DNA of 64,000 nt from Dictyostelium discoideum (taxonomy: Eukaryota), in assembly GCA_000004695.1 (NCBI GenBank), contig CM000155.2:3104001-3168000 (forward strand), in the 5' to 3' direction. Shown here one piece after another: positions 858 to 19,504 of the stretch. The notes below the pieces were generated by a model that was not told the origin of the DNA, did no database searches, and worked only from the letters and a program-made list of their open reading frames with translations. The translations under genes were made by a program, and so were the position numbers. Position 1 is the stretch's first letter. Every line of letters begins with the position of its first letter.

Positions 858-1430
858 ATGACAATCAAATTAGCAGCAGTTACAGGTACCTATATGGGTA
901 TTTTAGGTGGTTATTATTTATATTTAACTTTAAATGTAGTAAAGGAAAGACAAAAGGCTAATATTGCAATTGGTGATGGTACAAGTGCAATCATTCAACA
1001 ATTGATTGATGGTAAAAATGAAACAATTGATCACTCTCGTTATCAACCACTTGGTATGTTTTTTAATTTTAATTAATTTAAATTTTTTTTTTTTTTTTTT
1101 TAATTTCCAATTTTTAATGTATTTAATTAATTTATTTTTTTTAATAGTAATTGCAATTAGAGCTCATGGTAATTTTAATGAATATATTCCTTTAATTGGT
1201 GTACTTTCATTAATAAATGAACTCCATGGTGCACCATCTGGTTTAATACACCTTGTTCTTGGTTCATTCACTCTTGCTCGTATTGCCCATGTTCATGGAT
1301 TAAAAGAAAAACATTCAATAGGTTTAGGACGTAAAGTTGGTGCAGTTTCAACTTTCTTAACTTTAGGTCTTGCTTCTGTTGGTTCATTCTATTTCTCAAA
1401 TAAGGAATCTATCCATTCATTAATTGGTAG

Positions 1431-1434
<4 letters not shown>
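858..1434 (+). CDS. MAPEG family protein (microsomal glutathione S-transferase 1-like). Two exons, intron ~1054-1162.
   Basis: ATG at 858. Exon 1 ends at a GTATGT donor (1054). Exon 2 encodes RAHGNFNEYIPLIG...FTLARIAHVHGL, matching the MGST1 'RRAHxNDxENIxPF' core. The two track ORFs 858-1076 and 1006-1434 are the two exons. Confidence 0.65.
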
Positions 1435-7627: not shown

Positions 7628-7919
7628 AAAATAAATATATAAATTACACAATTGAATAAAATGTTAGAAAATAAAATATTTAATGAAATAGGTAAATTCA
7701 ATATAAAAAAACAAAAATAAAATATTTTCTTATTTTTTAGTTTTATTTTTTATTTTTAATATTTCAAATAATTATACTTTGAATTTCATAATAGAAAATG
7801 AGTTTTTTTTTTTTTAATAGTTTTATAATTACCCATTTTATCTTTTTTTTAATATTTTGGGGTGGTATTTAAAAAAAAAATATTTAATAATTAAAAATTT
7901 TTAAATTTCTTTTATTTAT

Positions 7920-9235
7920 TTAATCTTTTCTTAATTTGTGATAGTGAAGTCTTATTGACATTTTATAATGTGGAGGTATTAAAATTAAAATAACCAAAAC
8001 AAAAATAATTACAAAAAAAACATAACCAATTACAATACCAGCTATTTGAGATTTTGATAAAGATGATGAAGATGATGATGTGCATATTGAATTATCAGAA
8101 TTTGAAGAAGCTGGATTTGAATTTAATAATACAGAAAAGTCTGGATCAATTTCAATTTTTGATTTATATAAAGGTATTTGAATAGCGACAAATGATAATT
8201 TTTTACTTGAGGTTGTATTATTTAATTTTTCATTCTGATTGAAATCTGTTAAAACTTTATTACTAATTGTTTGTACTATTCCATTATCGATAATTGCTCT
8301 TTTTAAAAATCTCAAAAGAAAACAAAATTCACCAACTTGGAGTCCAAAATAATTAAAATTATCATTAAAACCAAATTGTTCACTTGAACAAATGTCATCA
8401 GTTTTTGAAGTTTCAATAAAACTTTTAAATATTAATTCAAATGTATTTAAAGAAGTTGAGAATGGATAATGACCAATTGTTTTTGTGTATTTTAAACATG
8501 ATGGATTTATAGTAAAGTTTTCACCTGCAAATGTTATTTGAGTTTCTTTTTCAAACCATTCGGCTACTACTGTTATTGTTGATACTTGATTAGCACCTTT
8601 TTTAATTTTTGTATTATAAATTACATTGTACTTGAAATGGGTGTGGAGATCCAATCATTATCATTAAAATAATGAATATTTTCAATTGAATTATTGAAAT
8701 TAATTTCACGTATTGCAACAATAGAAACCATTGTATAATTATCATTGCGTTTGAGCTATAAACTATACTATTTTCTACCTGTATATTATAATTATCAATT
8801 ATTGAAACAGTTGATTGAGACCCAAAATGTTTACCTATTATTGTTATGAATGAAACTCCACTTGAAATTAGTGAGATGGTATCAATTGAATTTGATTTCT
8901 TTAATAGAGGTTCATTATTATTTAAGAATTACTTTCACCACTACTGTATGAGTTTGATATTAAATTTTCAATATATGGTAAAGTAATAGTTTGATTGGTT
9001 GAAATATAACTTTTGAAACAGCTATATCCAAATCATAAGCTGAATAACCATTGAAATTGAATGAAGTATCGACAATTCCAAAAACTGATACTATAAAACC
9101 TTTACTTGAACTGAATCCATATGGAATAGAACAGAGTGCTTCATATTGTGCAAAAATGGTTAAATTCGTAGATGGGCCAAATCCCTTTCCTTTTAATTCA
9201 GTATTACATTCAATATTTGTTTTTTTTGATCTTAA
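7920..9235 (-). pseudogene. Truncated, internally deleted copy of the neighbouring tgr-like membrane-protein genes. Only the C-terminal ~244 codons remain in frame; upstream homology is broken.
   Basis: ORF 7920-8654 matches the C-terminal 240 aa of the 9521 and 14866 genes, including the TM segment and the tail HYKMSIRLHYHKLRKD. 8655-9235 stays nucleotide-homologous to segments 10240-10330 and 10660-11170 of gene 2, but the frame is broken and the EGF-encoding and upstream parts are missing. 3' flanks 7860-7920 and 9481-9540 are homologous. Confidence 0.6.
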
Positions 9236-9520
9236 AAAAAAAAAAATATAAAAATAGATAATTTATCTTATTTTTTTTATTTTTTTTTATTTTTTTTTTT
9301 TTATTTATTTATTTTTTTAATTTTTTCAACTAACTCTTTTTTTCATAATTTTGAATTAAGGTAAGAATACAATGAAGATACTGAAGAATATAAACACTTG
9401 AAATATATTTATGTTTATTACTTTTTAATTTTTAACAAAATGGATAATTTACAAAAAAAGTAATGGACATTGTTTAAAAAAAAAAAAAAAATTTTAATAA
9501 TTTTAATTTCATTTATTTAT

Positions 9521-14191
<4,671 letters not shown>

Positions 14192-14268
14192 TGTCTTTTA
14201 AAAAAATTTCTTTTCTTTTCTTTAATTTTTTACTTTTTTTTTCTTTTTTTCTTTTTTTTTTTTTTTTT

Positions 14269-14299
<31 letters not shown>

Positions 14300-14796
14300 T
14301 CTTTACTTTTATTTTCTTTTTTTTTTTCAATTTTATTTTCGTCTTTTTTTTTTTTTTTTCATAAAAAATATAAAAATTAAAAAAAATTAAAAATAGATAT
14401 TTTCTCTTGATTTTTTTTAAAATCATCTCTCTCACAGCCCAAAAAATTAATTTCTTAAAAAATGAAAAAAAAAAGTTAAAAGTAATTTTGTGCTGGTTTT
14501 ATTTTTTATTTTTTATGCGGTCATTTCTACCAGAAGCTCAAGATATTTTCATCCAGATAACCCATTTGTTTATGTTTTGATTGGTTCAAAAAATTATCAA
14601 GAAGCTAAAAATTTGTGTTTGGAAATATCAAAAAATAAAAAAAGTTAAATATCTTTGAAAAAAAAAAATAATAAAAGATTAAAAATTATTATTTATTTTT
14701 ATAAAAAGAGGGAAAAGATATTATCTATTTTTTATTTATATTTTTATTTGTTTTTTTATTTTTTTATTTTTTTTATTTATTTATTTATTTGTTTGT

Positions 14797-14843
<47 letters not shown>

Positions 14844-14865
14844 TTATAATAAATAAATTCTTTTT

Positions 14866-17800
14866 TTAATTTTTTCTGCTAACTCTTTTTTTCATTTTAA
14901 AAAGGAAAATTCTAAAAGATAATTTTGAATTTGAAGGTAATAAGATTAAAATAATTAAAATTAAAATTATAAAGAAAACTATAGAACCAATTACAATACC
15001 AGCTATTTGAGGTTTTGATAAAGATGATGAAGACGACGATGTGCATATAGAATTATCAGAATTTGAAGAAGCTGGATTTGAATTTAATAATACAGAAAAG
15101 TCTGGATCTAACTCTATATTAATATTATAGAAAGGTATTTGAATAGCGACAAACGATAATTTTTTACTTGAGGTTGTACTATTTAATTTTTCATTCTGAT
15201 TGAAATCTGTTAAAACTTTATTACTAATTGTACGTACTACATTATCAATATTTGCTCTTTTTAAATATTTTGAAAGAAAACTAAATTCACCAACTTGAAG
15301 TTCTAAATAATTTGAATGATCATTTAAACCAAATTGTTCACTTGAACAAATGTCATCAGTTTTTGAAGTTTCAATAAAATTTTTAAATATTAATTCCAAT
15401 GTATTTAAAGATGTTGAGAATGGATAATGATCAATTGATATTGAATATTTTAAACTTGATGGATTTATAGTAAATTTATCACCTGCAAACGTAATTTGAG
15501 TTTCTTTTTCAAACCATTCAGCTATCACTGTTATATTTGATACTTGATTAGCACCTTTTTTAATTTTAGAACTATATGAAAATTTTGTACTTGAAATATT
15601 TTTAAAATCCCAAATATCAAAATAATGAATATTTTCAATTGAATTATTAAAATTAATTTCACGTATTGCAACTATTGAAATTATAGTATTAAGTTTAATA
15701 TCACCATTATTGCCAACAATTGGAATTTCATTTTTAATATCTGGTGATGTTAAATTTGTTATAGGTTGAGGTATTTTAACAATCTCTGATAAACAATCAA
15801 ATCCACTATATGGTGAGATACATTGACATCCAATATTTTCAATACATTTACCTCTATTCAATCCACCACAACTATTTAAACATACTACTTTTGGTGTTGG
15901 TGTTATTAGTGTTGGTATTGATGGTGTTGAAGTAGGTGTTGTGGTTGAAGTTGGTGTTGAGGTTGGTGTTGAAGTTGGTGTTGAATCAGATGAAGAAGTT
16001 GAAGAATCAGGTAAAACAGTGATTTCAACAATATTGGATAGAGTTTGAGTAATTTCATCTTTTATATAAACATATAATTTTTCAGAATTAAATGATTCAA
16101 CTTTATTTATTAAAATAACATTTGAACTGAAAATTAAATTATTTTGAACAAGAGAATTTGAACTATCATTAATAAAAATTTTAGGATCAGAACCAAAACT
16201 ATTACCACTTATTGTTATTAAACCACCACTACTTGAGATTGATGTAAAACTTTCAATAAATGGTGTTTTGGTTTGTATAATTGGTGATATAATACTAGTG
16301 AAACCTAAATTTTCTAAATCAAATGATGAAAAACCACCAAGATTAAAAGAAGTATCAACAATTCCAAATACTGATGCCACAATCATATTACCATTACTAT
16401 CACCACCACCAAATCCATATGGTACTAAACAAGTTGCTGTATAATTTGCTGAAAATATCAAAAGGGAAGTATCCCATTGGAAACCATTTAATTTAGTTTC
16501 ACATTCTATACTTGTTAATTCTAAATCTAATAAATCATTTATGTAATATTCTAAAAATACAACTGGTTTATGAGTGTCATATAATAAACCAAAACTATCG
16601 GTAACTTGAAATTCAAACGATAAATCCCTATTATGTGAATATGAATCAATATTTAGAGTTGATGGTTTAAAAATTGAAAGAGTTGGTTGAGTTGCATCTG
16701 GTGTAAAATCTGGAGTATTAACTTTAAAAGTTAAAAAACTCATACTAGTTGAATCTATACTATATATTGGTGATAATAAATTTACACCTGATTCTTTATT
16801 AAAATTAAAATTATCTTCAATTATTTGAGATTTGTGACCTGAATTATCAATTAAAATTATATTTTCAAATGTAAAAGTTTGTCCTTGAATGGTTGGTTTC
16901 ACAAGGAATTTAATATTATATTGACCTATAAATTTATCACCACTTATTAAATCAAGTTCAGGTGTAAAATAAAATTCTAAAGGAATTGGATCCTTATCAC
17001 CAATAATTCTAAAATATGCAGATTTCAAACCATTAATTCTATCTTCAATTGTAACTGTCCAACCTACCATTAAATCTTTGGTTCCATTACATGTAAATTC
17101 ATTACCATTGACAGGTTCAATCGATTGGAAATAAGATATATTTTTAATAATTGGTGGCATTTCATCACAATCTGTTGAGGTTACACTTAAATTTGCAGCA
17201 TTACCAAATAATGAATAAAAGTAATCCATTGTATAACTAACGCTATCTACTTTAATAATATATGGCAAACTACCAGAACATTTACGAGGTGGAATTACAA
17301 ATTGAATTTTAAAAACATTTTCATTTTTGTCTTTTAAATATTGACCGACTTCAAGATCCATTGGATTAATTAATGAATCTCCATAAATTGGATCTAATAA
17401 ATAAAATGAGATTGGTATATCGTATGCTGAATCAATATAATCGAAATATAAAGTTTGTAAAAATCCATAATCAACATTTACATTTTGTGCTTCAAATTCA
17501 AATTTACTAACTGATAAAACTTGACTTCCACCATTAATACTATTATTAAAAGCATTTATATATGGGATTTCTTTTAAAGGATTTAATGAATAATATGTAT
17601 CATATATTTTGAATTGACCACCTGTAGTCATAATTAAAATTGGTGTTTTTTCAAAAGTAACAATGATAACTTTTTCATAATAACCATCACCTATTGTTCC
17701 ATTGACTAAATCCTTTTGAGTTATAATGTTACCACAATATTTCAACCATGATAAAACACCAGCACCTGCTTTTGAAATGATCCTAACTTGAAGAACTGCT

Positions 17801-19504
17801 CTTTTACCATCACCACCTCTTGGATAATAAATATTCATACTTTCAATAGATGGCAATTCATAAGTTTGTGGTGTGTCAAAAACTTCAAGAGATGTAACAA
17901 CTTTATTTAAATTTGAACTAAAGCTATAATATAATGAACCAATCACTTGAGTCTTTAATACACTCATTTGGTATTGAAATATTTGCATTGTACCTGAAAC
18001 AACACCATAAGGGTATTTAAATTGTCTTAGATTAATACCAACATTTTGTGTACTCTCAAAACCAGTTGAAAATAACATTGATCTTGATATATTACCGTTT
18101 ATTTCCATATTTATAAAATTTGTACTTGTATTTGTTGTACCATCAATAAAAGAAAAAGGTATCGCTATTTTAAATAATTGTAAAATATAAATAATTGTTA
18201 ATACTTTGATATTAAAAAAAAAAAAAAAAACAAAAAAAAAACTTACCATAGTAATCGATTGAAGCAGTTTCAAACGAAATATTATCATAAACTAAAGAAT
18301 GTACTTGATAACTTAATTTTGGTCTAATAAAATCTGACGGTAAAGAAGATGATAATAAAAACTGAGCCCTTGTTTCATTCCCACCTACCATTTTAAACCA
18401 TTGATTATTAAAATCTATAGGTTGATCAATCATTCCATATACAGCTTTTGAATATAAAAATAAATTCGATATTGATTTATCAATTGTATCACATGATGTA
18501 ATTAAACTTGTATCCCAATATGTACTTGATATATAACTACCACCTGCTCTATAATTATTACTTTGAGAACATACATCATTATCATAATCTTTTTTTTTTT
18601 TTTTTTTTATTAGTTTTTTTTTTTTTTTTCATATAAATTTAAAAAATATATTTATTACCTACCTATTAAAGGATTAAATAAATTGAATTCAATATTACTT
18701 AAAGAACCATATGAAATATTAAATAATAAATATGTTGGACTTACTCGAGGTGAGTTTGAAGGATTGAAATCTAATGAAAATCTTGCTAAATAGGTTGTTG
18801 AACTATCAATTAAAAATCCGTCTAAAAACGAGTATGTATATGGAAAAGGTGAATTTGTTGGTTTTAAACTTAACTGTTTTGTAACATTATAAATTTTTAA
18901 ATAAAAATAAATAGTTGATGATGGTGGAGTTGTTGTAATTAAATTTTCTAATACTTGAAAATTTAATGGTGATGTTGGTGGTTCTACACAATTATAGACG
19001 AATAAAGGAATTGCATAATTATTTGATCCATCATATATTGAGGAGAGGCTATATTGGCCGACTGTACAATTTGCATAAATTTCAAAACGACCAAATGTAT
19101 CTATTGATTGTATGAGTTCTGTTTTAAAATAATCAGTTGATAAACCTGAAATTAAAACTGTTGAAATTTGACTACCAAATGATCCAATAAATGTAAATCT
19201 TGGGTAACAATAACCACCTTTTTTATTTTAGTTTTTTTTTTTTTTTTATTTTGGGAAATAATATTAGTAAAAGAAATATAAATAAACGTTGCTATGTTTA
19301 ATTTTGACTTTTTCCCACATAAAAATTTTCAGATAAAAATCTGAATTTCGGCATCGTTTATTTTTTTTTTTTATTTTTAGTTTTCATACTTTCAGCATAA
19401 AAATCACTATTTTTTTTTAATTGAAAGAAATCAACAGAAGACAGTGTAATTACTAATTCTATAAATAATAAATTTAAAAAAATAAATAAAGTCAAAAATT
19501 TCAT
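14866..19504 (-). CDS. Paralog of the 9521-14191 gene. tgr-like type-I membrane glycoprotein of ~1430 aa, five exons, with an extra Thr/Pro/Ser-rich mucin-like linker.
   Basis: ATG at 19504 with signal peptide MKFLTLFIFLNLLFIELVITLSS. Donor GAAA|GTATGA. Exon 2 ~19230-18660, donor GTAGGT. Exon 3 ~18578-18250, shares QWFKMVGGNET with gene 2, donor GTAAGT. Last exon from ~18208 to the stop at 14866. IPT/TIG signature ISSSGGLITISGNSFG. EGF-like module CLNSCGGLNRGKCIENIGCQCISPYSGFDCL. Linker STPTSTPTSTPTSTTTPTSTPS. Confidence 0.6.

What the first reader, a model, noticed from the sequence alone, without database searches (positions are those of the whole stretch)
7920..19504. Tandem cluster of three tgr-like IPT/TIG-EGF membrane glycoprotein paralogs with mosaic identity
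Three head-to-tail paralogs sit on the minus strand: two intact ~4.6-kb five-exon genes and one decayed copy. The intact pair alternates between blocks of ~95% nucleotide identity and blocks with almost no protein similarity. The identical blocks are 11880-12250 vs 17220-17600 (encoding EIPYINAFNNSINGGSQ...CDEMPPIIKNI) and the C-terminal 250 codons. The divergent block is the ~350 aa preceding the IPT/TIG and EGF modules. Gene 3 has also gained a Thr/Pro mucin-like linker. This mix of gene conversion and diversification is what cell-surface self/non-self recognition loci show, and the tgrB1/tgrC1 allorecognition genes of Dictyostelium have the same domain architecture (signal peptide, IPT/TIG, EGF, TM). 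These copies are not the known head-to-head tgrB1-C1 pair, so they may be an uncharacterised tgr subfamily cluster.
Basis: partly seen in the sequence, partly recalled or inferred. Interest (0 to 1): 0.7.

Follow-up and report, generated by a model that had tools for sequence, protein, structure and literature searches.

The report
ComC-family surface-protein genes with conversion tracts
Two intact genes and one decayed tandem copy for a Dictyostelium cell-surface protein keep two segments nearly identical by copying them between genes, but they belong to the ComC-like family, not the tgr kin-recognition family, and are not unusually variable between strains.

Summary
The window is Dictyostelium discoideum AX4 chromosome 6. 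The observation largely holds. Two intact minus-strand genes lie head to tail (gene 2, 9521-14191, is DDB_G0293720; gene 3 is 14866-19504), followed by a decayed copy (7868-9221, annotated DDB_G0293600). Each intact gene has 4 exons, not 5, and encodes 1436 aa.

Identity is mosaic. A 470-nt tract is 94% identical and the C-terminal block about 90%, against 17-55% amino-acid identity in the N-terminal third.

Five other Dictyostelium assemblies show that the mosaic comes from interlocus gene conversion. In the divergent blocks the copies group by paralog type (100% bootstrap). In the two similar blocks they group by species (99-100%). Synonymous divergence there is about 3-10 times lower.

The tgr/allorecognition reading is not supported:
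- Pfam gives DUF7743-DUF7035-DUF7034-EGF-ComC_SSD. The only IPT/TIG match is a single one below threshold.
- The genes lie head to tail, not head to head.
- Synonymous divergence between strains equals that of the flanking gene (0.085-0.11 vs 0.073-0.079).
- No window between orthologs has dN/dS above 1.

This is a known kind of evolution in a large, uncharacterised family found so far only in dictyostelids. Interest is modest.

The parts
14866..19504 (-). Gene 3 (gene-3 type, first copy in the array). Exons 19504-19390, 19217-18663, 18588-18247, 18164-14866; 1436 aa. Signal-peptide-like N-terminus, transmembrane segment at aa 1391-1413, tail ...SNSKLSFRIFLFKMKKRVSRKN.
   Evidence: The assembled coding sequence is open with GT-AG introns. 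It is 92.5% identical to the ortholog P0004. An AX4 re-assembly calls a 1436-aa product here. Pfam finds DUF7035, DUF7034, DUF7949 and ComC_SSD and DUF7743.
9521..14191 (-). Gene 2 = DDB_G0293720 (UniProt Q54BJ0). Exons 14191-14080, 14000-13440, 13274-12957, 12840-9521; 1436 aa when started at the upstream ATG. The database model starts at Met21 (14128).
   Evidence: The only GT-AG solution found contains the annotated protein P0001 in full. It is a 100% match to P0001. Pfam domains are DUF7743 (aa 437-547), DUF7035 (670-822), DUF7034 (838-972), TIG-like (1007-1074, below threshold), DUF7949/EGF (1107-1138) and ComC_SSD (1153-1369). The transmembrane segment is about aa 1394-1416.
7868..9221 (-). 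Gene 1: a decayed gene-2-type copy. A 258-aa model (DDB_G0293600, Q54BJ2) is annotated on it. The first ~895 codons are missing, 323 nt including the EGF module are deleted, and it has frameshifts and no signal peptide.
   Evidence: blastn against gene 2 matches 9221-8735 to 11150-10659 and 8736-7868 to 10335-9473, both at 88.5%. The homologous sequence reads in three different frames with stops. The ORF 7920-8654 hits ComC_SSD.
11772..12236 (-). Conversion tract A in gene 2 (aa ~536-690). It lies between DUF7743 and DUF7035, has no Pfam model, and ends at the family-wide CDEMPPII motif.
   Evidence: 94.3% identical to gene 3 over 470 nt. Paralog dS is 0.164 here vs 0.63-0.67 in blocks N and B. 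The tree groups copies by species, with 100% bootstrap.
17117..17581 (-). Conversion tract A in gene 3, the partner of 11772-12236.
   Evidence: Four nucleotide sites in block A are shared by the two AX4 paralogs against all four copies in the other two strains.
9574..10209 (-). Similar block C in gene 2, covering most of ComC_SSD up to the transmembrane segment. It has been homogenised more weakly or longer ago than tract A.
   Evidence: Tracts of 89-92% identity. Paralog dS is 0.197 vs 0.35-0.44 for AX4-D. dimigraforme orthologs. The two D. dimigraforme copies are sisters with 99% bootstrap in columns 921-1010.
14934..15569 (-). Similar block C in gene 3, the partner of 9574-10209.
15889..15987 (-). 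Thr/Pro-rich linker of gene 3 (DSTPTSTPTSTPTSTTTPTSTPSIPTLITPTPK), directly before the EGF-like module.
   Evidence: It is present, with variable repeat number, in every gene-3-type ortholog and absent from every gene-2-type copy.
10610..10813 (-). A single divergent IPT/TIG-like domain in gene 2 (aa 1007-1074).

Best explanation
This is a tandem array of genes for type I membrane glycoproteins of the ComC-like family, which my searches found only in dictyostelids. The family architecture is DUF7743, DUF7035, DUF7034, one weak IPT/TIG-like domain, an EGF-like module, a membrane-proximal ComC supersandwich domain, a transmembrane helix and a short tail.

Shown:
- The array evolves by birth and death: 1 to 4 copies at the syntenic site in six genomes, and one decayed copy in AX4.
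- The gene-3 type and gene-2 type split before D. discoideum and D. dimigraforme diverged.
- Since that split, interlocus gene conversion has repeatedly homogenised two segments (tract A and the supersandwich block), independently in at least two lineages. The N-terminal ~450 aa, the middle stalk and the cytoplasmic tail have stayed specific to each paralog type.

Inferred:
- Conversion persists only where purifying selection keeps the copies similar enough to recombine. It is blocked, or selected against, where the paralogs have diverged.
- The proteins are cell-surface adhesion or receptor molecules. The variable N-terminal head and the conserved, type-specific tail would give each paralog its own partner and output. 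The homogenised modules would be a shared scaffold.
For: Identity and family:
- Pfam hits above the curated cut-offs.
- The same architecture in Tieghemostelium and Polysphondylium homologs.
- 782 cluster representatives at E<=1e-3 and 294 at E<=1e-30, mostly 1300-1430 aa. All ten sampled that carry names are dictyostelid.
- The EGF+SSD module aligns to a protein that carries LRR_ComC and ComC_SSD, at E=1e-11.

Copy number.

Gene conversion:
- Within-species paralog identity in block A is 0.93-0.98 in both AX4 and D. dimigraforme, while orthologs are only 0.82-0.90 identical there.
- Paralog dS in block A is 0.164 (AX4) and 0.068 (D. dimigraforme), against 0.63-0.67 in blocks N and B.
- Fisher p for the synonymous deficit is 3e-4 to 6e-7.
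- NJ trees give paralog-type clades at 100% in blocks N and B, and species-type clades at 100% and 99% in blocks A and C1.
- Block A has 4 strain-type against 5 orthology-type sites. Elsewhere the counts are 0-2 against 17-208.

Both paralogs are under constraint: whole-exon dN/dS is 0.27-0.42, and the gene-2 tail has dN/dS 0.09 between species.

Against: - No expression or functional data exist for these genes. No paper in the library mentions the two locus tags known for this cluster (DDB_G0293720, DDB_G0293600) or four neighbouring tag numbers I guessed.
- The surface-receptor role rests on architecture and a model with mean pLDDT of only 56.5.
- The trees are NJ trees on short blocks with 11 sequences. 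Within the D. discoideum clade, block A is poorly resolved (26-57% bootstrap).
- Strong purifying selection on block A (dN/dS 0.09-0.3) contributes to its similarity. Conversion is shown by synonymous sites and tree topology, not by protein identity alone.
- The comparison strains are diverged lineages (flank dS about 0.075). They are not a population sample, so within-population polymorphism is untested.
Confidence: 0.85

Rival explanations
1. One reading: an uncharacterised tgr subfamily cluster that acts in self/non-self recognition. Diversifying selection would drive the divergent blocks and conversion would shuffle the variants.
For: - It is a single-pass surface protein with Ig-like domains and one weak IPT/TIG-like domain.
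- The array shows conversion, pseudogenes and copy-number change, as recognition loci do (general description in 10.1101/2025.10.22.684067).
- dN/dS is higher than in the flanks (0.31-0.42 vs 0.07-0.26).
Against: - No TIG repeat passes threshold in gene 2, gene 3 or three distant relatives.
- The architecture is the ComC-like one.
- The genes lie head to tail, not as a head-to-head pair.
- dS between strains is 0.085-0.11, against 0.073-0.079 for the flanking gene.
- There is no hypervariable patch between strains and no ortholog window with dN/dS above 0.93.
- None of the named relatives is a tgr protein.
Confidence: 0.04
2. There is no gene conversion. The mosaic only reflects uneven purifying selection along two old paralogs.
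For: Blocks A and C have the lowest dN/dS (0.09-0.46). Block A ends in a family-wide invariant motif.
Against: - Synonymous divergence is also about 3-10 times lower in these blocks.
- Paralogs within a species are closer than orthologs between species, in two lineages independently.
- Tree topology switches with 99-100% bootstrap.
- AX4-specific states are shared by both paralogs in block A.
Confidence: 0.04
3. The gene-3 type and gene-2 type are a co-evolving ligand-receptor or heterodimer pair, kept adjacent. Their homogenised modules would be the mutual or common interface.
For: - Both types, in the same order, are present in AX4, three other discoideum-clade assemblies (L001-L003) and D. 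dimigraforme.
- The type-specific heads and tails are conserved across species.
Against: - D. citrinum keeps only the gene-3 type.
- The second copy in cf. discoideum has a broken reading frame.
- Gene-2-type copy number varies from 0 to 3.
- There is no interaction or expression evidence.
Confidence: 0.07

Closest known systems
ComC-like family of Dictyostelia (proteins carrying Pfam ComC_SSD PF22933; comC is listed as a developmentally essential gene with EGF domains, signal peptide and TM in PMC4931340, Table 3)
   Same: - An EGF-like module is followed by a linker, the ComC supersandwich domain, a single transmembrane helix and a short tail.
- The C-terminal module aligns to a protein bearing LRR_ComC and ComC_SSD at E=1e-11.
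- UniProt already names the decayed copy 'ComC supersandwich domain-containing protein'.
   Different: - No LRR_ComC domain was found. The N-terminal two thirds are instead DUF7743-DUF7035-DUF7034 plus about 430 aa with no Pfam model.
- These are therefore a separate, much larger subfamily, not comC orthologs.
- Any role of comC in cell-cell communication during development is recalled from my own knowledge (Kibler et al. 2003, Dev Biol) and could not be read here.
tgr family (tgrB1/tgrC1 allorecognition genes)
   Same: - Type I surface glycoproteins built from Ig-like beta-sandwich domains.
- A multigene family with clusters, pseudogenes, copy-number change and interlocus conversion (10.1101/2025.10.22.684067 and PMC12745789).
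   Different: - tgr proteins are defined by repeated IPT/TIG or Ig E-set domains. Here there is one sub-threshold TIG-like domain.
- tgrB1 and tgrC1 lie head to head and are extraordinarily polymorphic. These genes lie head to tail and their synonymous divergence is at background level.
Segmental concerted evolution of tandem paralogs (interlocus gene conversion restricted by divergence and selection)
   Same: Conserved tracts are homogenised within each species. Flanking regions keep the phylogeny by paralog type. A decaying extra copy and variable copy number fit birth-and-death dynamics.
   Different: Nothing unusual. Tract lengths (about 0.5 and 0.6 kb) and the pattern are typical.
GLMP (glycosylated lysosomal membrane protein, PDB 8r8q_B) and galactose-mutarotase-like supersandwich domains
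   Different: This is only a fold-level resemblance, on a model whose pLDDT in the SSD region is about 70-82. Sequence identity is 6-9%. No catalytic or transporter-partner function is implied.

Membership tests
tgr family | Repeated IPT/TIG (PF01833 / IPR002909) or Ig E-set domains in the ectodomain | tested here: not met
   - Gene 2 has one TIG match at E=0.052, 14 bits against a 20.9-bit cut-off. Gene 3 has none.
- The isolated segment scores 16.7 bits. Two of 8 family members give a sub-threshold match.
- The distant relatives P0008, P0011 and P0013 have none.
tgr family | Signal peptide plus a single transmembrane segment (type I membrane protein) | tested here: met
   Both genes have a hydrophobic N-terminus and one C-terminal helix. 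This feature does not discriminate, because many families share it.
tgr family | Sequence or phylogenetic grouping with annotated tgr proteins | not testable with these tools
   No tgr sequence could be retrieved. Indirectly, none of the named homologs is a tgr protein, and the 150 best of 782 homologs are mostly proteins of the same ~1300-1430-aa size.
tgrB1/tgrC1-type allorecognition locus | Head-to-head gene pair with a shared promoter | tested here: not met
   All copies are on one strand, head to tail, in AX4 and in five other assemblies.
tgrB1/tgrC1-type allorecognition locus | Extreme polymorphism between strains relative to the genome background | tested here: not met
   - AX4 vs two diverged D. 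discoideum strains: dS is 0.085-0.11 for these genes and 0.073-0.079 for the flanking gene.
- Identity is fairly even, 0.76-1.0 per 50-aa window.
- Caveat: this compares a few diverged strains, not a population sample.
tgrB1/tgrC1-type allorecognition locus | Diversifying selection (dN/dS above 1) in the recognition region | tested here: inconclusive
   - No 60-codon window between orthologs exceeds 0.93.
- Block N is 0.6-1.0 within the D. discoideum clade, on only 7-11 nonsynonymous changes.
- Site-level codon models could not be run.
ComC-like family (ComC_SSD proteins) | ComC supersandwich domain (PF22933) above the gathering score | tested here: met
   61.7 bits (gene 2), 46.6 bits (gene 3) and 41 bits (gene 1 remnant), against a cut-off of 24.
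ComC-like family (ComC_SSD proteins) | EGF-like module directly N-terminal to the SSD, then a transmembrane segment | tested here: met
   DUF7949 scores 38.5 and 36.3 bits against 27. Six cysteines are invariant across 14 family members. A transmembrane helix is predicted at model residues 1058-1082.
ComC proper (comC orthologs) | N-terminal LRR_ComC (PF24141) region | tested here: not met
   No LRR_ComC match at E<=1. A protein with that domain exists near the D. dimigraforme cluster and shares only the EGF+SSD module with gene 2.
DUF7743-DUF7035-DUF7034 subfamily of dictyostelid EGF-like proteins | DUF7743, DUF7035 and DUF7034 in this order, above the gathering scores | tested here: met
   For gene 2: DUF7035 93.3, DUF7034 79.5 and DUF7743 38.5 bits (33.2 when the N-terminal part is scanned alone), all above 27. 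The order is the same in Tieghemostelium and Polysphondylium homologs.
Interlocus gene conversion (concerted evolution) | Paralogs within a genome are closer than orthologs between species in the tract, with lower dS and a switch in tree topology | tested here: met

The most novel reading that the evidence does not exclude
The adjacent gene-3-type and gene-2-type genes could be a second cell-cell recognition or signalling pair, independent of tgr. Each type has its own head and its own cytoplasmic tail, both conserved since before D. discoideum and D. dimigraforme split. The two proteins would bind each other or a common partner through the modules that gene conversion keeps identical. Changes in copy number of the gene-2 type would then tune specificity between lineages.
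Probability: 0.06. Interest if true: 0.65.

Novelty: new member of a known kind. Interest (0 to 1): 0.3.

Why it matters
The result corrects a tempting misassignment: these are not tgr genes and show no allorecognition signature.

It documents a clean, outgroup-verified case of segment-restricted concerted evolution in a very large family of surface proteins found so far only in dictyostelids (hundreds of 50%-identity clusters). No member of the DUF7743-DUF7035-DUF7034 subfamily seen here carries more than an automatic name, and no paper in the library mentions the locus tags searched.

It also gives three practical annotation fixes:
- DDB_G0293720 should start 21 codons upstream, which restores a signal peptide.
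- DDB_G0293600 is a pseudogene remnant.
- Gene 3 is an intact 1436-aa gene.

The conserved paralog-specific heads and tails make the two genes reasonable knockout targets for cell-cell interaction phenotypes. Nothing here reopens a long-standing question.

Tried and rejected
- Solved structures: a sequence search of the PDB with gene 2 found nothing.
- Word-indexed homolog searches: the profile search and the search with the SSD domain alone returned almost nothing new. The family size came from the exhaustive HMMER search instead.
- AlphaFold-database fold search: not available, so no named Dictyostelium structural neighbours, whether comC or tgr, could be ranked.
- Direct comparison with a tgr protein: no sequence was obtainable. 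The PNAS paper has no supplements held.
- Literature on comC with lagC/lagD, and on the locus tags: nothing found.
- Exact look-up of my gene 3 protein: not in the collection. An AX4 re-assembly does call a product of the same length.
- Assembly artefact: rejected, because the same mosaic appears in five further assemblies.
- Tandem tgr neighbours in the window: rejected. The other large ORFs are housekeeping genes (WW-domain protein, LMBR1, RNB exoribonuclease, NOC3/CBF and others).
- The structure model is of low overall confidence (mean pLDDT 56.5). It was used only for fold class.
Full report
**Where this is.** The window has about 22% G+C. The large ORF at 9521-12826(-) is 100% identical to 'hypothetical protein DDB_G0293720 [Dictyostelium discoideum AX4]' on a 3.60-Mb record, which I take to be chromosome 6. 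The surrounding large ORFs are ordinary genes: a WW-domain protein, LMBR1, an RNB exoribonuclease, NOC3/CBF, a short-chain dehydrogenase and a CRAL-TRIO protein. None is tgr-like.

**Anatomy.** A search over GT-AG junctions gave a single solution for gene 2 that contains the annotated protein in full. Its exons are 14191-14080, 14000-13440, 13274-12957 and 12840-9521. Gene 3 was assembled by reading the sequence against its ortholog P0004. Its exons are 19504-19390, 19217-18663, 18588-18247 and 18164-14866. Both genes have four exons and encode 1436 aa. An AX4 re-assembly also calls a 1436-aa product for gene 3. The database model of gene 2 starts at Met21. The in-frame ATG at 14191 adds MKHYIFLIFFFILIPKSLGG, a signal-peptide-like stretch also present in the orthologs P0002 and P0003.

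Gene 1 is a remnant. Two pieces (9221-8735 and 8736-7868) are 88.5% identical to gene 2. Between them, 323 nt that include the EGF module are missing. Everything before about codon 895 is absent, and the homologous sequence reads in three frames with stops. AX4 nevertheless carries a 258-aa model on it (DDB_G0293600, 'ComC supersandwich domain-containing protein').

**The mosaic is real.** A codon-level alignment of genes 2 and 3 gives 61% amino-acid identity overall. The profile along the protein is as follows:

| Region of gene 2 | Identity to gene 3 |
|---|---|
| first ~450 aa | 17-55% aa |
| aa 450-550 | 65-70% aa |
| aa 550-670 | 90-100% aa, 93-98% nt |
| aa 790-1100 | 36-57% aa |
| aa 1205-1414 | 80-90% aa, 86-94% nt |
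| cytoplasmic tail | about 50% aa |

The main tract is gene 2 12236-11772 against gene 3 17581-17117: 470 nt at 94.3%, with a 113-nt perfect run.

**Conversion or just constraint?** I fetched the syntenic locus from five other assemblies: two diverged D. discoideum strains, one 'cf. discoideum', D. citrinum and D. dimigraforme. They come from the genome set of PMC12745789, which describes these strains as genetically diverged from AX4. The array lies between the same flanking genes in all of them and holds 3, 4, 2, 1 and 2 copies. The first copy always has the gene-3-type tail (…SNSKLSFRIFLFKMKKRVSRKN). Later copies have the gene-2-type tail (…PPHYKMSIRLYYHKLRKH). Four lines of evidence point to conversion.

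- *Identity.* In the divergent blocks, orthologs are much closer than paralogs. In block A the two paralogs within AX4 (0.93-0.97) and within D. dimigraforme (0.93-0.98) are closer than AX4-D. dimigraforme orthologs (0.82-0.90).
- *Synonymous divergence.* Paralog dS is 0.164 (AX4) and 0.068 (D. dimigraforme) in block A, and 0.197 and 0.185 in block C. It is 0.63-0.67 in blocks N and B. The deficit is significant, with Fisher p from 3e-4 to 6e-7.
- *Trees.* Bootstrapped NJ trees switch topology. Blocks N and B give paralog-type clades at 100%. Blocks A and C1 put the two D. dimigraforme copies together at 100% and 99%.
- *Recent events.* Within block A, four nucleotide states are shared by both AX4 paralogs against all four copies of the other two strains, compared with five fixed paralog-type differences. 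Elsewhere the counts are 0-2 against 17-208.

The duplication is therefore old, and two segments have been homogenised repeatedly and independently. The rest has escaped.

**What family.** Pfam gives DUF7743, DUF7035, DUF7034, DUF7949 (an EGF-like module) and ComC_SSD, all above the curated cut-offs. IPT/TIG appears only as one sub-threshold match in gene 2 (14-16.7 bits against 20.9) and not at all in gene 3. Homologs from Tieghemostelium and Polysphondylium have the same architecture. An exhaustive HMMER scan finds 782 cluster representatives at E<=1e-3 and 294 at E<=1e-30, mostly 1300-1430 aa long. All of the ten sampled that carry names are dictyostelid 'EGF-like domain-containing' or hypothetical proteins, including other AX4 paralogs on a different, 8.48-Mb AX4 record. 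The EGF+SSD module aligns at E=1e-11 to a D. dimigraforme protein that carries LRR_ComC and ComC_SSD. No LRR_ComC domain is present here.

The genes therefore share ComC's membrane-proximal module but belong to a different and larger subfamily. In the literature held, comC is listed only as a developmentally essential gene with EGF domains, a signal peptide and a transmembrane segment, restricted to group 4 (PMC4931340).

**Structure.** An AlphaFold2 model of the exon-4 product (1101 aa, 14-sequence alignment) has low overall confidence (mean pLDDT 56.5). Its domains score 70-82. It is all-beta with one C-terminal helix.

- Foldseek matches chains of Ig-like and macroglobulin-like domains, such as complement C3, CD109, titin, invasin and filamin.

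A single such domain does not make a tgr protein.

**Testing the recognition idea.** The tgr family is defined by a transmembrane segment plus repeated IPT/TIG or Ig E-set domains. tgrB1 and tgrC1 are a head-to-head pair and are extraordinarily polymorphic, against a genome-wide mean nucleotide diversity of 0.003 (10.1101/2025.10.22.684067 and PMC12745789). This cluster differs on each point.

- The genes lie head to tail.
- Between AX4 and the two diverged D. discoideum strains, the adjacent flanking gene has dS 0.073-0.079 and dN/dS 0.07-0.08. Exon 4 of these genes has dS 0.085-0.11 and dN/dS 0.31-0.37. Synonymous divergence is thus at background level, and only the protein evolves faster.
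- Amino-acid identity between strains is fairly even (0.76-1.0 per 50 aa) with no hypervariable patch.
- No 60-codon window between orthologs exceeds dN/dS 0.93.
- The N-terminal end of exon 4 runs near 0.6-1.0 within the D. discoideum clade, but on only 7-11 nonsynonymous changes. Windows above 1 appear only between gene 2 and an extra gene-2-type copy in one strain, again on small counts.

This looks like relaxed or mildly adaptive evolution of a surface protein. It does not look like balancing or diversifying selection of the tgrB1/C1 kind. The caveat is that the strains compared are diverged lineages, not a population sample.

**How it most likely works.** Shown: this is a birth-and-death tandem array of ComC-like surface-protein genes with two recurrent conversion tracts. 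Both intact AX4 genes are under purifying selection. Their cytoplasmic tails are type-specific and conserved between species (gene-2 tail dN/dS 0.09).

Inferred: conversion continues only where constraint keeps the copies similar enough to pair, and divergence elsewhere blocks it, so the mosaic maintains itself. The proteins would be glycosylated (19-22 N-X-S/T sequons) adhesion or receptor molecules. The N-terminal head and the tail would give each paralog its own partner and output, on a shared scaffold.

The Thr/Pro linker is a stable feature of the gene-3 type, with variable repeat number. Because distant paralogs also carry Pro/Thr linkers, loss in the gene-2 type is at least as likely as gain in gene 3.

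**Verdict.** The conversion-plus-divergence reading is confirmed with outgroups. The tgr/allorecognition interpretation is not supported. The genes are already annotated as hypothetical proteins, and the evolutionary mode is well known. What is new is the documentation for this cluster and a few annotation corrections.

Noticed in passing
window 14128-14191 (-): The AX4 model of DDB_G0293720 starts at Met21. The in-frame ATG at 14191 adds a signal-peptide-like N-terminus (MKHYIFLIFFFILIPKSLGG) that is also present in the orthologs P0002 and P0003. The database model probably lacks its true start.
   Followed up: partly
window 7868-9221 (-): DDB_G0293600 is annotated as a 258-aa protein, but it sits on a 5'-truncated, internally deleted and frameshifted remnant with no signal peptide. 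It is most likely a pseudogene. One re-annotation of an AX4-identical assembly fuses it to gene 2 as a 1780-aa product (P0016).
   Followed up: yes
L004 14917-16061 (D. citrinum): D. citrinum has only the gene-3-type copy. An integrase-fragment gene (SH3_Tf2-1, Integrase_p58_C) lies where the gene-2-type copy sits in other species. This hints at loss associated with a transposable element.
   Followed up: no
L003 about 12149 (cf. discoideum, second copy): The reading frame of the gene-2-type copy is broken inside block A. The deposited gene model skips the affected residues. This is either a pseudogene in the making or a sequencing error.
   Followed up: no
L002 15760-24592 (D. discoideum strain, GCA_054859355.1): Two further gene-2-type copies are annotated as one 2830-aa fusion, so this strain has four copies. 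Against AX4 gene 2, the third copy has dN/dS above 1 in two windows, on small counts.
   Followed up: partly
L005 801-4923 (D. dimigraforme): A gene of the ComC-proper type (LRR_ComC, EGF_TEN, ComC_SSD) lies two genes upstream of the cluster in D. dimigraforme. It is not at the corresponding place in AX4, where a CRAL-TRIO gene sits.
   Followed up: partly
window 858-1434 (+); L003 20941-24351: The cf. discoideum assembly has four tandem MAPEG-family genes downstream of the cluster, and the other assemblies show at least one or two within the sequence fetched. The window has a membrane-protein-like ORF at 858-1434 in the corresponding position, which I did not test against Pfam.
   Followed up: no
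window 13315-13440 (-), intron 2 of gene 2: A long poly(A) run, which reads as a poly-Lys ORF tail, lies just inside the intron after the exon-2 donor. It makes the raw ORF list misleading here.
   Followed up: no
[not shown]
   Followed up: no
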